DNA of 64,000 nucleotides from Naegleria gruberi (taxonomy: Eukaryota): the NCBI GenBank assembly GCA_000004985.1, contig GG738894.1; one strand, written 5' to 3'. Made by a program: the position numbers and the translations under genes. This document shows positions 44,182 through 45,600 of this stretch, in pieces; the first letter of the stretch is position 1; each line of letters opens with the position of its first letter. The notes below the pieces were generated by a model, which saw only the letters and a program-made list of their open reading frames with translations, was not told the origin of the DNA and did not search any database.

Positions 44182-45600
44182 ATGAATAGAATGAGTCGGG
44201 CATATTTTCAAATGTGGAGGTGCGAAGGGTTGGGATGTCCTACTACTAATAATCATCAAGCTAGGACGGTGGTATCATCGTCGGGTGGTGAGAAGGATCA
44301 TGATTGGAGGCGCACCAATTCAATATTAAAATTATTTAATCTTTTTGATCGGAATAGTAGCAATAGTAGTGGTGGTTATAAATATTGTAAAAATAATTTT
44401 TCCATGATGATGATAAGTTTTGGAGTGATGATCATGTTGTTAATGTCATTATTGAATAGTACGAGTTTTGTGAATGCTGCTGAAGTGCCATTATTATTGG
44501 GAAGTGGATCTTCACTTGTTGAAGAATTTCATAAAGAAGCAGCAAATTATTTTATTGGATACATGAGAAGAAGTGTCGATGTAATGTATGATGCCTCTGG
44601 ATCGGGGACTGGTGTGAAAAATTTATTTAATTCGAATGGAGTTTATTCATTTGCAGCAACTGATTATGGATTAAAGGCAGCTGACAGAAAAATTAATACA
44701 GATGCAAAAGTGTTGCCAATCATGACAACATATATTTCAATAATTGTATGTAGGATAGCGAAAGAAATTAATATTGAACATAATTAGAGTAATATTGAAG
44801 GATTGAAGGGTGGTTATTCAATTACCTTTTCCCAGGAGGCGCTTGTAGGAATATTTAATGGAACCATTTCCAGATGGAATGACCAAACATTGCAATTGTT
44901 GAATCCATCACTTGCACTCCCAAATACATCAATTTATGTGGTTGTTAGAAATGATTCAAGTGGCACTACTGACATGCTCACTACTGGATTATCATCATTT
45001 TCAAAGGAGTGGGCTTCAACATATGGATCGGGAACTTTAATCAAATGGTCATCCCTCTTATCGAACAGAATAATCTATGCAGAGGATGCCAAAGATGTTT
45101 CTTTCATCATTACTAGCACACCAAACACTATTGGGTACTCTACACCTACTACTTTTGAGCAGCATGCTCCAGCAACTATCAAAACAAAATTAGGAGCTTC
45201 TGTCACTCCCTCATCGAGCTATCTAAAAGGTGTAATAACAAGTGGAATATCATTTAATGAGAATTTTATGCATCCTTCTGTGGTTATAGATAGGCCAGAT
45301 ATTTACCCATTCGTTGGTGTTTCTTATATTGTCTATTTGTCATCCACAATGAATGATTGTGTAAAGGCTACTTATTTGGGCAAGCTTTTGGAATATTATA
45401 CTTCAGATAGAGCTACCAAGATTATTGAGGATGCCGCCTTTTCTTCACTCTTCATTGATGCATCTGTAAAGGAAAGATATATGGGATATTTGAAAAATTT
45501 CACATGTAATGGTAAACCTGTACTGAGTTCCAGTTCCATCACTCAATATTCGATAGCACTTTTAATTTTATTGATTATTCAATTATTATGTATTTTATAA
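44182..45600 (+). CDS. PstS-family (DING-like) phosphate-binding protein, secreted or surface-anchored
   Basis: Exons are 44182 (or 44404)-44745 and 44788-45600, separated by a 42-nt GTATGT..AG intron in phase 0. The signal peptide is best from the ATG at 44404 (MMMISFGVMIMLLMSLLNSTSFVNA). PstS blocks are GSGSS, [61 protein letters not shown] and NTIGY. The C-terminal tail is hydrophobic (YSIALLILLIIQLLCIL). Confidence 0.85.

What the first reader, a model, noticed from the sequence alone, without database searches (positions are those of the whole stretch)
44182..45600. Intron-containing, signal-peptide-bearing PstS/DING-like phosphate-binding protein in a eukaryote
The protein follows bacterial PstS closely, including phosphate-ligand contexts: ATD for the Asp, and VRNDSSGTT for the Arg and the Ser-Gly-Thr loop. 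The block [43 protein letters not shown] parallels E. coli [43 protein letters not shown]. The gene is clearly resident in this genome: it has host-like AT-rich codon usage, a 42-nt GTATGT..AG intron, a eukaryotic signal peptide and a C-terminal hydrophobic tail suggesting a GPI or membrane anchor. Eukaryotic PstS-like DING proteins are long known at the protein level, but their genes have been notoriously hard to find. This is a clean genomic example, probably of horizontal origin, with no ABC transporter partner visible nearby. That suggests a sensing or scavenging role rather than classical import.
Basis: partly seen in the sequence, partly recalled or inferred. Interest (0 to 1): 0.7.

Follow-up and report, generated by a model that had tools for sequence, protein, structure and literature searches.

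The report
Membrane-tethered phosphate-binding protein gene in Naegleria
This is a real, spliced Naegleria gruberi gene for a surface-tethered protein with an intact bacterial-type (PstS) phosphate-binding pocket; it is already annotated, it is not a DING protein or a recent bacterial import, and it belongs to a widespread eukaryotic family in which the same domain serves as the outer part of signalling receptors.

Summary
Window 44182-45600 (+) carries a two-exon gene with a 42-nt GTATGT..AG intron at 44746-44787. Its 458-aa product is identical to the GenBank protein 'periplasmic phosphate binding protein-like protein [Naegleria gruberi]'. It is a classical PstS-type domain: Pfam PF12849 at 5.5e-22, a predicted fold matching PstS crystal structures at TM 0.91-0.92, and all phosphate ligands kept. 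Codon usage matches the host. No pstCAB lies in the window.

- It is not DING-like: no DING structure chain matches by sequence, and TM to DING structures is 0.64-0.70.
- It is not a Naegleria-specific recent transfer. Profile and NJ-bootstrap tests place it inside a pan-eukaryotic clade of PstS ectodomains.
- In that clade the domain is usually followed by a membrane helix plus a cyclase, kinase, class-C GPCR or phosphodiesterase. Members include Willaertia, Acrasis, Andalucia, Entosiphon, molluscs, a nemertean and fungi.
- N. gruberi keeps only the ectodomain and a terminal hydrophobic tail that aligns with the relatives' membrane helix.
- The annotated 74-aa N-terminal extension is doubtful.

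The most likely function is a surface-tethered phosphate sensor or co-receptor, or phosphate capture. I rate it a new member of a known kind, of modest interest.

The parts
44182..44745 (+). Exon 1 of the annotated gene model (codons 1-188)
   Evidence: ORF. The spliced translation equals P0001.
44182..44403 (+). Annotated N-terminal extension (residues 1-74). Coding status is doubtful; it may be 5' UTR.
   Evidence: No Pfam hit at E<=1. AF2 pLDDT is below 50. All relatives begin directly with the signal peptide. The region overlaps a GC-rich patch.
44404..44478 (+). Hydrophobic signal sequence (residues 75-99, MMMISFGVMIMLLMSLLNSTSFVNA|AEV). It is a cleavable signal peptide if translation starts at 44404, and a signal anchor if it starts at 44182.
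   Evidence: Hydropathy windows 72-97. V at -3 and A at -1 before AEV, read from the sequence. It aligns with the signal peptides of homologues.
44479..45531 (+). PstS-type (PBP_like_2) phosphate-binding Venus-flytrap domain, residues 100-436, interrupted by the intron
   Evidence: PF12849 E 5.5e-22. TIGR00975 at 140 bits. PDB PstS E about 1e-20. AF2 pLDDT above 90. Foldseek TM 0.91-0.92 to PstS.
44656..44664 (+). Codons A159-T160-D161. D161 corresponds to E. coli PstS Asp56, a phosphate ligand.
   Evidence: Alignments.
44746..44787 (+). 42-nt spliceosomal intron, GTATGT...TTAG, phase 0
   Evidence: An in-frame TAG at 44785-44787 stops the unspliced frame. The junction aligns gap-free to PstS homologues. 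The GenBank model uses the same splice.
44788..45600 (+). Exon 2 (codons 189-458 plus the TAA stop at 45598-45600)
44944..44970 (+). Codons V241-T249 (VRNDSSGTT). They carry R242, D244, S246, G247 and T248, which correspond to E. coli Arg135, Asp137, Ser139, Gly140 and Thr141.
   Evidence: R242, S246 and G247 are invariant in alignments A2 and A3.
45316..45465 (+). Segment bounded by the conserved cysteine pair Cys379 and Cys428 (MNDC ... FTCNGKPV). This is a putative disulfide shared with eukaryotic ectodomains and a subset of bacterial PstS.
   Evidence: Cysteine positions. Conservation. 22 of 24 Anaerolineae-type PstS carry C...C.G. The disulfide itself is inferred.
45550..45597 (+). C-terminal hydrophobic tail (residues 443-458, SIALLILLIIQLLCIL), preceded by a Ser-rich stretch (LSSSSITQY). 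It is either a GPI-attachment-signal-like end or a tail-less membrane helix.
   Evidence: Hydropathy. AF2 helix 437-457. It aligns with the TM helix of the Willaertia, Haliotis and Tubulanus receptors. The convergent protease gene ends at 45611, which leaves no room for further exons.

Best explanation
The gene encodes an extracytoplasmic, membrane-tethered orthophosphate-binding protein.

Shown:
- It is a spliced, host-adapted Naegleria gruberi gene.
- Residues 100-436 form a classical PstS-type two-lobe binding domain with every phosphate-ligand side chain kept.
- The domain belongs to a eukaryote-wide clade of PstS ectodomains. In that clade the usual architecture is signal peptide, PstS domain and one membrane helix, then either a short tail or a signalling module (adenylate/guanylate cyclase, kinase plus cyclase, class-C 7TM, phosphodiesterase).
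- The N. gruberi protein stops inside or just after the segment that aligns with that membrane helix. It has no cytoplasmic output domain.
- No PstCAB transporter genes lie nearby.

Inferred:
- The protein enters the secretory pathway, most likely from the ATG at 44404, which would give a cleavable signal peptide.
- It is displayed on the cell surface through its C-terminal hydrophobic end, either by GPI attachment or as a tail-less helix.
- The two lobes close around HPO4(2-)/H2PO4(-) as in bacterial PstS.
- Because its relatives couple the same domain to cyclic-nucleotide or G-protein outputs, the most likely role is reporting extracellular phosphate. Lacking its own output, it would act as a co-receptor or modulator of a membrane partner.
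- Surface capture of scarce phosphate for a eukaryotic carrier is the second possibility.

The confidence of 0.6 is for the whole statement. The identity and family placement alone I would put at about 0.9. The sensing role rather than scavenging I would put at about 0.45.
For: Identity and splice.

PstS family and fold: PF12849 at 79 bits. TIGR00975 E 6.8e-41. PDB PstS E about 1e-20. AF2 domain pLDDT above 90. Foldseek TM 0.91-0.92 and rmsd 2.1-2.3 A to Yersinia and E. coli PstS.

Ligands: S,L,S,D,R,D,S,G,T against E. coli T10,F11,S38,D56,R135,D137,S139,G140,T141.

Host-like codon usage.

Eukaryotic clade:
- Profiles built without any heterolobosean score the N. gruberi domain at 255-262 bits for the eukaryotic sets. 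Generic bacterial lipoprotein PstS profiles give 179-180 bits, and Anaerolineae-type PstS gives 147 bits.
- In 300 NJ bootstraps the domain lies on the eukaryote side of the best eukaryote|bacteria split in 99.7% of replicates. Its sister is purely eukaryote-type in 95%.

Tail: it aligns with the receptor TM helix. N. fowleri and Willaertia relatives are signal peptide + PstS + TM + short basic tail. There is no room downstream.

No PstCAB in the window.
Against: - There are no expression, localisation or binding data.
- The score is below the curated TIGR00975 equivalog cut-off (140 against 205 bits).
- The start codon is uncertain. The annotated model puts 74 residues before the hydrophobic segment.
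- GPI attachment was not tested with a predictor.
- The exact sister group is unresolved. The 251-taxon NJ tree gave bootstrap near 0 for exact clades. Pairwise scores to a bacterial Anaerolineae PstS (33.8% identity) are as high as those to eukaryotic relatives.
- Part of the 'eukaryote-type' set was labelled by architecture only, not by organism name.
- There is no synteny and no shared intron position with the N. lovaniensis or Willaertia genes.
- Without an output domain, a sensing role needs an unidentified partner.
Confidence: 0.6

Rival explanations
1. Naegleria acquired a stand-alone bacterial PstS by recent horizontal transfer. It now scavenges phosphate at the cell surface without an ABC transporter.
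For: The closest hits in the word-indexed search are prokaryotic PstS at 27-37% identity. Pairwise similarity to an Anaerolineae PstS is as high as to eukaryotic relatives. No output domain and no PstCAB lie nearby. The family as a whole plausibly derives from bacteria. Anaerolineae-type PstS resemble the eukaryotic consensus more than they resemble the generic bacterial profile.
Against: The exhaustive search finds eukaryotic proteins as the best per-domain matches. Profile and NJ tests put the sequence in the eukaryotic clade. Codon usage is fully host-like. Relatives exist across Heterolobosea and other Discoba. The tail aligns with the TM helix of eukaryotic receptors, a feature bacterial PstS lack.
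Confidence: 0.12
2. It is a truncated remnant of a PstS receptor cyclase, like the Willaertia, Acrasis or Andalucia proteins, that lost its cytoplasmic domain. It is either functionless or acts as a decoy that soaks up ligand or blocks receptor dimerisation.
For: The protein ends exactly in the segment that aligns with the receptor TM helix. Discoban relatives carry a cyclase after that helix. The sequence is long-branched, at about 30-36% identity to every relative. No orthologue of this exact lineage was seen in N. fowleri or N. lovaniensis.
Against: The reading frame is intact. All ligand residues and the cysteine pair are kept. A 65%-identical environmental fragment keeps the ATD and VVVRNDTSGTT motifs, which suggests constraint. 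Tail-only versions (signal peptide + PstS + TM + short tail) are themselves conserved in N. fowleri and Willaertia. Lack of an output domain is therefore a normal state in this family.
Confidence: 0.15
3. It is a eukaryotic DING protein gene.
For: DING proteins are PstS-superfamily phosphate binders that share the same ligand set (abstracts of PMC7922408 and PMC2225411, listed).
Against: The predicted mature N-terminus is AEVPLLLGSGSS, not DINGGG. No DING or HPBP chain is found by sequence at E<=10. Foldseek TM to PfluDING and HPBP is 0.64-0.70, against 0.91-0.92 to classical PstS.
Confidence: 0.01
4. It is a bacterial contaminant or an assembly artefact.
For: None beyond the bacterial-type domain.
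Against: A spliceosomal intron is needed for an intact domain. Codon usage is host-like. The gene lies between intron-containing eukaryotic genes, with a patatin-like gene upstream and a trypsin-like protease gene downstream; an EF2-like gene and a 5S rRNA gene lie further downstream on the same stretch of sequence. The GenBank record sits on a 499,907-bp contig.
Confidence: 0.01

Closest known systems
Bacterial PstS, the periplasmic phosphate-binding protein of the PstSCAB ABC importer (E. coli 1IXH/2ABH, Yersinia 2Z22; TIGR00975, PF12849)
   Same: Same fold (TM 0.91-0.92). The same phosphate ligands are present: Ser/Thr10, Ser38, Asp56, Arg135, Asp137, Ser139-Gly140-Thr141. Length and domain boundaries also match.
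   Different: Identity is only 21-24% in the Foldseek structural alignments to PstS crystal structures. The score is below the equivalog cut-off. The gene is eukaryotic and has an intron. No pstC/A/B genes are nearby. It has a C-terminal hydrophobic membrane tether and a Cys pair that E. coli PstS lacks.
Eukaryotic receptors with a PstS (PBP_like_2) ectodomain. These include PstS + cyclase in Willaertia, Acrasis, Andalucia and Entosiphon; PstS + kinase-homology + guanylate cyclase in Haliotis, Argopecten and Tubulanus; and PstS + 7tm_3 in Calcarisporiella. The 7tm_3 type was noted earlier for Spizellomyces (PMC3251606), social amoebae (PMC10445921) and Plasmodiophora (PMC4815078).
   Same: The ectodomain groups with these proteins. 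They share the Cys pair and the [13 protein letters not shown] / VVVRxDSSGTT motifs. Topology is the same: signal sequence, ectodomain, then a hydrophobic helix at the same alignment position.
   Different: N. gruberi has no cytoplasmic domain at all; the protein ends in the hydrophobic segment. None of these receptors was found experimentally characterised in the searched literature.
Tail-only PstS membrane proteins of Heterolobosea (N. fowleri FDP41_010842, Willaertia ABK040_009442, N. lovaniensis C9374_010256)
   Same: They are stand-alone PstS ectodomains with a signal peptide and a single C-terminal hydrophobic helix, from the same organismal group.
   Different: Identity is only 31-36%. 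There is no synteny. Intron positions differ. They have a short basic cytoplasmic tail that N. gruberi lacks. Two of them have Glu instead of Asp at the Asp56 position.
DING proteins (PfluDING 2Q9T/4F1U, HPBP 2V3Q)
   Same: They belong to the same superfamily and use the same phosphate-binding chemistry.
   Different: There is no DINGGG N-terminus, no detectable sequence match, and much weaker structural match (TM 0.64-0.70).
Trypanosomatid and Naegleria receptor adenylate cyclases with type-I periplasmic-binding-protein ectodomains (review PMC6027212; window gene 34668-39125)
   Same: The design principle is the same: a bacterial-type Venus-flytrap module outside the cell, one membrane pass, and cyclic-nucleotide output.
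   Different: Those use LIVBP/ANF-type (type I) binding domains of unknown ligand, not the type II PstS domain. The present gene also lacks the cyclase.

Membership tests
PstS / PBP_like_2 phosphate-binding proteins | Match to Pfam PF12849 above the gathering score | tested here: met
   79.2 bits against a cut-off of 27, E 5.5e-22, profile positions 12-267 of 267
PstS / PBP_like_2 phosphate-binding proteins | Equivalog-level match to the transporter PstS model (NCBIfam TIGR00975 cut-off) | tested here: not met
   140.3 bits against a cut-off of 205. NF008171 scores 81.7 against 339. The protein is a family member but not an equivalog of the bacterial transporter subunit.
PstS / PBP_like_2 phosphate-binding proteins | Two-lobe type II binding-protein fold superposable on solved PstS | tested here: met
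   AF2 domain pLDDT above 90. Foldseek gives 2z22 TMt 0.92 at rmsd 2.1 A, and E. coli 2abh/1a54 TMt 0.91.
PstS / PBP_like_2 phosphate-binding proteins | Conserved phosphate ligands (E. coli T10, S38, D56, R135, D137, S139, G140, T141) | tested here: met
   N. gruberi has S, S, D, R, D, S, G, T at these columns (alignments)
PstS / PBP_like_2 phosphate-binding proteins | Genomic or functional partnership with PstC/PstA/PstB | tested here: not met
   tblastn of PstC/A/B from operon L001 gives no hit in the window at E<=1. Pfam scans of ten neighbouring genes show no ABC components. The rest of the genome could not be searched.
PstS / PBP_like_2 phosphate-binding proteins | High-affinity, selective orthophosphate binding | not testable with these tools
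   Requires ITC, MST or equilibrium dialysis on the purified ectodomain
DING proteins | N-terminal DINGGG signature | tested here: not met
   The predicted mature N-terminus is AEVPLLLGSGSS. The signature is as defined in the abstract of PMC7922408.
DING proteins | Sequence similarity to DING or HPBP proteins | tested here: not met
   No DING or HPBP chain is among the PDB matches even at E<=10. All 19 matches are classical PstS.
DING proteins | DING-type fold with its extra loops | tested here: not met
   2q9t, 4f1u and 2v3q give TMt 0.64-0.70 at rmsd 4.2-5.7 A, against 0.91-0.92 for classical PstS
Eukaryotic PstS-ectodomain membrane receptors | Ectodomain groups with the eukaryotic clade rather than with bacterial PstS | tested here: met
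   Group HMMs give 255-262 bits (eukaryotic) against 147-180 bits (bacterial). In NJ bootstraps the domain is on the eukaryote side in 99.7% of 300 replicates. These are distance methods only; no ML tree was available.
Eukaryotic PstS-ectodomain membrane receptors | Signal sequence + ectodomain + single hydrophobic helix after the conserved Cys-x-Gly motif | tested here: met
   Hydropathy shows segments 73-97 and 443-458. The tail aligns with receptor TM helices. The Cys pair is conserved.
Eukaryotic PstS-ectodomain membrane receptors | Cytoplasmic output domain (cyclase, kinase, 7TM, PDE) | tested here: not met
   The stop codon is at 45598-45600, directly after the hydrophobic segment. The convergent trypsin-like gene ends at 45611. 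The protein matches only the tail-only sub-type.
GPI-anchored surface proteins | C-terminal GPI-attachment signal (small omega residues, short polar spacer, terminal hydrophobic stretch with no cytoplasmic residues) | tested here: inconclusive
   LSSSS-ITQYS-IALLILLIIQLLCIL* fits the pattern by inspection. No GPI predictor was available and no experiment exists. A pangenome paper reports evidence of GPI-anchored proteins in Naegleria (PMC9928731).
GPI-anchored surface proteins | Cleavable N-terminal signal peptide | tested here: inconclusive
   The h-region with VNA|AE is present, but it is N-terminal only if translation starts at 44404. The annotated model starts at 44182.

The most novel reading that the evidence does not exclude
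PstS-type ectodomains on eukaryotic membrane proteins may be direct receptors for extracellular inorganic phosphate. This group includes the tethered N. gruberi protein, the PstS-cyclases of Discoba, the PstS receptor guanylate cyclases of molluscs and a nemertean, and the PstS class-C GPCRs of fungi. On this reading the N. gruberi protein is the ligand-binding half of such a system and signals through a separate membrane partner. That would identify a molecular phosphate sensor family in eukaryotes, where extracellular phosphate sensing is poorly understood.
Probability: 0.3. Interest if true: 0.75.

Novelty: new member of a known kind. Interest (0 to 1): 0.35.

Why it matters
For the gene itself, little changes. 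It is an annotated N. gruberi gene, and the DING puzzle is untouched.

The useful outcome is the context. The same phosphate-binding module, with its ligand residues mostly intact, sits on the outside of cyclases, kinases, GPCRs and a phosphodiesterase across very distant eukaryotes. In the searched literature only the GPCR fusions were mentioned, and only as domain annotations.

If these domains do bind phosphate, they offer directly testable candidates for extracellular phosphate receptors. N. gruberi is a culturable amoeba, and it carries a minimal, output-less version that could be used to study ligand binding and partner recruitment.

Tried and rejected
- Upstream GC-rich patch (44000-44300). 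I tested it as a possible small RNA. Rfam gave no match at gathering score, and only a sub-threshold snoZ159 hit at 43848-43929 (E 1.2). Folding z-scores were +1.35 and +1.25. Rejected.
- Profile search of the 5.8-billion-protein database with the eukaryotic alignment A3. Its only use was to find the Anaerolineae-type P0290 and P0291.
- 251-taxon NJ tree. Exact-clade bootstrap was about 0, so it says nothing about the sister group. I replaced it with a 148-taxon split test and group-profile scoring.
- Synteny and shared intron positions with N. lovaniensis and Willaertia. Both were negative, so they give no support for one-to-one orthology.
- A possible extra 3' exon using a GTATTT donor inside the last codons. 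It would run into the convergent protease gene and shorten the helix to 13 residues. Rejected by inspection.
- RGS domains in the flanking multi-pass membrane proteins. My guess was not supported by Pfam at E<=1.
- The AFDB Foldseek library was unavailable.
- Literature. No paper on a Naegleria PstS was found, and none on PstS-cyclase receptors.
- DING and contamination readings were tested and rejected.
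Full report
**What is at the coordinates**

The window is AT-rich eukaryotic DNA, about 35% G+C, and its first 9860 bases are N. Two + strand ORFs, 44182-44787 and 44803-45600, join when 44746-44787 is removed. That segment is a 42-nt GTATGT...TTAG intron. The joined CDS is 1377 nt and encodes 458 aa.

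The product is identical, residue for residue, to a database protein named 'periplasmic phosphate binding protein-like protein [Naegleria gruberi]', which lies on a 499,907-bp contig. So the organism is Naegleria gruberi. The gene model, including this intron, is already public.

Unspliced, the frame ends at an in-frame TAG at 44785-44787. Spliced, the junction region aligns without a gap to bacterial PstS. Codon usage is indistinguishable from fifteen other long ORFs of the window. GC3 is 0.279 against 0.286, and the RSCU correlation is 0.92 against 0.85-0.97 for control genes.

The neighbours are ordinary eukaryotic genes:
- a patatin-like phospholipase;
- a convergent trypsin-like protease with its own intron, ending at 45611;
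- LRR proteins;
- an EF2-like GTPase;
- a 5S rRNA gene.

Contamination can be excluded.

**Is it PstS?**

Yes. The sequence evidence is strong:
- Pfam PBP_like_2 scores 79 bits against a cut-off of 27, E 5.5e-22.
- NCBIfam TIGR00975 (PstS) gives E 6.8e-41, although its 140 bits fall below the equivalog cut-off of 205.
- All 19 PDB sequence matches are classical PstS, with a best E of about 1e-20.

The structural evidence agrees. An AlphaFold2 model built on 113 homologues gives pLDDT above 90 for residues 100-436. It superposes on Yersinia and E. coli PstS with target TM-scores of 0.91-0.92 at 2.1-2.3 A.

In a 148-sequence alignment, the columns of E. coli T10, F11, S38, D56, R135, D137, S139, G140 and T141 read S, L, S, D, R, D, S, G, T in N. 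gruberi. F11 contributes only its backbone, which I state from my own knowledge of the E. coli structure. Every side-chain ligand is therefore retained.

**Is it DING-like?**

No, on three counts:
- The predicted mature N-terminus is AEVPLLLGSGSS, not DINGGG. The DINGGG signature is as described in the abstract of PMC7922408.
- No DING or HPBP chain appears among the PDB sequence matches even at E<=10.
- DING structures match the model far less well, at TM 0.64-0.70 and rmsd 4.2-5.7 A.

The gene therefore does not bear on the long-standing absence of eukaryotic DING genes.

**Who are the relatives?**

The word-indexed search found only prokaryotic PstS at 27-37% identity, which would suggest horizontal transfer. 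The exhaustive HMMER search of 1.84 billion representatives changed the picture. After self, the best hits are long eukaryotic proteins. I established names and domain content:

| Organism | Group | Architecture |
|---|---|---|
| Willaertia magna, Acrasis kona | Heterolobosea | PstS + class III cyclase |
| Andalucia godoyi | Jakobid | PstS + class III cyclase |
| Entosiphon, Artemidia | Euglenozoa | PstS + class III cyclase |
| Haliotis, Argopecten | Molluscs | PstS + kinase-homology + guanylate cyclase |
| Tubulanus | Nemertean | PstS + kinase-homology + guanylate cyclase |
| Calcarisporiella | Fungus | PstS + 7tm_3 |
| Tetraselmis | Green alga | PstS + phosphodiesterase |
| Chromosphaera, Entosiphon, Rigifila, Fabomonas | Various | Multi-PstS giants |

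The mollusc and nemertean proteins are annotated as natriuretic-peptide or retinal guanylyl cyclase-like. At least 36 of the roughly 150 best representatives carry such outputs.

There are also tail-only forms with a signal peptide, a PstS domain, one membrane helix and a short basic tail. They occur in N. fowleri and Willaertia, and the N. lovaniensis model looks truncated. Unnamed sequences of the same type exist too.

**Placement of the N. gruberi domain**

Per-domain pairwise scores are nearly tied between eukaryotic and bacterial sequences, so I used two group tests.

*Group profiles.* I built HMMs from groups that excluded all heteroloboseans and scored the N. gruberi domain against each:

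| Profile | Score (bits) |
|---|---|
| Eukaryotic fusion proteins | 255 |
| TM-tailed proteins | 262 |
| Bacterial lipoprotein PstS, with and without the cysteine pair | 179-180 |
| Anaerolineae-type PstS | 147 |

*NJ bootstraps.* I used 148 taxa and 300 replicates. The domain lies on the eukaryote side of the best eukaryote|bacteria split in 99.7% of replicates. Its sister group is purely eukaryote-type in 95%.

The exact sister is unresolved. These are distance methods, and part of the 'eukaryote-type' set was labelled by architecture alone.

Shared characters point the same way. A cysteine pair (MxDC ... TCxGxPV) and the [13 protein letters not shown] block are common to the eukaryotic ectodomains.

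The bacterial clade most like the eukaryotic consensus is PstS of Anaerolineales (Chloroflexota). These sit in ordinary phoBR-pstSCAB operons. They carry the same cysteine pair and score higher on the eukaryotic profiles (median 395-401 bits) than on the generic bacterial profile (328 bits).

A bacterial origin for the family as a whole is thus plausible. It would be old and not specific to Naegleria.

Against one-to-one orthology within Heterolobosea:
- Identity to the other members is only 31-36%.
- There is no synteny.
- The single N. gruberi intron (after codon 188) is not shared with N. lovaniensis (after codons about 50, 152 and 320) or Willaertia (after about 99 and 334).

A 65%-identical environmental fragment keeps the ligand motifs.

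**Topology**

Only two segments are hydrophobic, residues 73-97 and 443-458.

The first is a typical signal-peptide core followed by VNA|AE. In the annotated model, however, it lies behind 74 residues. That extension has no homologue and no Pfam match, and its pLDDT is below 50. It overlaps an unexplained GC-rich patch. Every relative starts directly with the signal peptide. I therefore think translation more likely starts at the ATGATGATG at 44404, but only transcript data can decide. Either way the PstS domain is extracytoplasmic.

The second segment ends the protein (SSSSITQYS-IALLILLIIQLLCIL-stop). It aligns with the membrane helix of the Willaertia, Haliotis and Tubulanus receptors. The convergent protease gene begins eleven bases after the stop, so no exon is missing. 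The pattern fits a GPI-attachment signal by inspection, but no predictor was available.

**How it most likely works**

Shown: an intact PstS-type pocket on an extracytoplasmic, membrane-tethered domain; no ABC partner in the window; and membership of a clade whose other members wire the same domain to cyclic-nucleotide or G-protein outputs.

Inferred: the two lobes close on orthophosphate as in bacterial PstS. The liganded, tethered domain then either reports extracellular phosphate through a separate membrane partner, or concentrates phosphate at the surface for a eukaryotic carrier. I favour sensing because of the family context.

N. gruberi itself uses binding-protein ectodomains on receptors. 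A cyclase with two type-I binding domains lies 5 kb upstream at 34668-39125, and the same design is discussed for trypanosome cyclases in PMC6027212.

The main rival is a truncated receptor remnant or decoy. Intact ligands, the conserved cysteines, the constrained environmental relative and the existence of conserved tail-only paralogues argue against simple decay.

**Comparison with what is known, and novelty**

The gene is already annotated with essentially the right name. PBP_like_2 domains on class-C GPCRs have been listed for Spizellomyces (PMC3251606), social amoebae (PMC10445921) and Plasmodiophora (PMC4815078).

In the searchable literature I found nothing on the Naegleria gene, on PstS-cyclase receptors in Discoba, or on PstS receptor guanylate cyclases in lophotrochozoans. 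I also found no functional study of any of these proteins.

The finding is therefore a new member, a minimal output-less form, of a known kind.

The residual interest lies in the family. If these ectodomains bind phosphate, they are candidate extracellular phosphate receptors in eukaryotes.

**Verdict**

- Observation: confirmed.
- Interpretation: partly supported.
- Interest: 0.35.

Noticed in passing
window 1-9860: The first 9860 bases of the window are all N (an assembly gap). Only 9861-64000 carries sequence.
   Followed up: yes
window 34086-39125 (+): A large receptor-type adenylate cyclase with two periplasmic-binding-protein-type ectodomains (Peripla_BP_6/ANF_receptor and Peripla_BP_A-cyclase), a membrane helix and a class III cyclase domain. 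It lies 5 kb upstream of the PstS gene. It shows that N. gruberi uses bacterial-type binding domains as receptor ectodomains.
   Followed up: partly
window 44000-44300: A GC-rich patch (41-47% G+C against about 30% around it) covers the region upstream of the annotated start and the first ~100 nt of the annotated CDS. It has no Rfam match and no significant RNA fold on either strand. It remains unexplained and adds to doubt about the 44182 start codon.
   Followed up: partly
window 28383-30671 (+) and 46794-49100 (-): Two paralogous multi-pass membrane proteins of about 765 aa, 25% identical over the membrane region (E 3e-9). The first has a weak NMT1/THI5-like (type II binding-protein) hit in its N-terminal part. 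My guess of a C-terminal RGS domain was not supported by Pfam.
   Followed up: partly
window 45611-46759 (-) and 60545-61318 (+): Two secreted trypsin-like serine protease genes. The first is convergent with the PstS gene, ends 11 bases after its stop codon, and contains a ~54-nt intron.
   Followed up: partly
window 17527-18660 (-) and 49469-50320 (+): Two leucine-rich-repeat genes share nearly identical N-terminal halves (MSK(R/L)NRQDFENHQ(L/F)INSEEIFTNNNNN...). They look like recent paralogues in opposite orientation about 31 kb apart.
   Followed up: no
window 56822-56940 (-) and 31588-31660 (-): A 5S rRNA gene (96.9 bits) and a tRNA-Lys(UUU) gene lie dispersed among protein-coding genes.
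   Followed up: yes
proteins P0135, P0271, P0144, P0147, P0220 (Haliotis, Tubulanus, Argopecten, Nucella): Lophotrochozoan receptor guanylate cyclases are annotated as 'atrial natriuretic peptide receptor 2-like' or 'retinal guanylyl cyclase 2-like'. They carry a PstS-type ectodomain with the full phosphate ligand set instead of the usual ANF-receptor domain. I found no paper describing this.
   Followed up: partly
loci L001, L006-L035 (Anaerolineales / Chloroflexota MAGs): PstS of Anaerolineae lies in normal phoBR-pstSCAB operons and carries the same C-terminal cysteine pair as the eukaryotic ectodomains. It scores higher on eukaryotic-ectodomain profiles (median 395-401 bits) than on a generic bacterial PstS profile (328 bits). 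It may represent a donor-like lineage for the whole eukaryotic family.
   Followed up: partly
locus L003 8001-9628 (N. lovaniensis C9374_010256): The 393-aa N. lovaniensis model ends in ...LVAPILLAILVD. Its 82%-identical N. fowleri orthologue continues through a full membrane helix and a basic tail (434 aa). The N. lovaniensis gene model probably misses its last exon.
   Followed up: no
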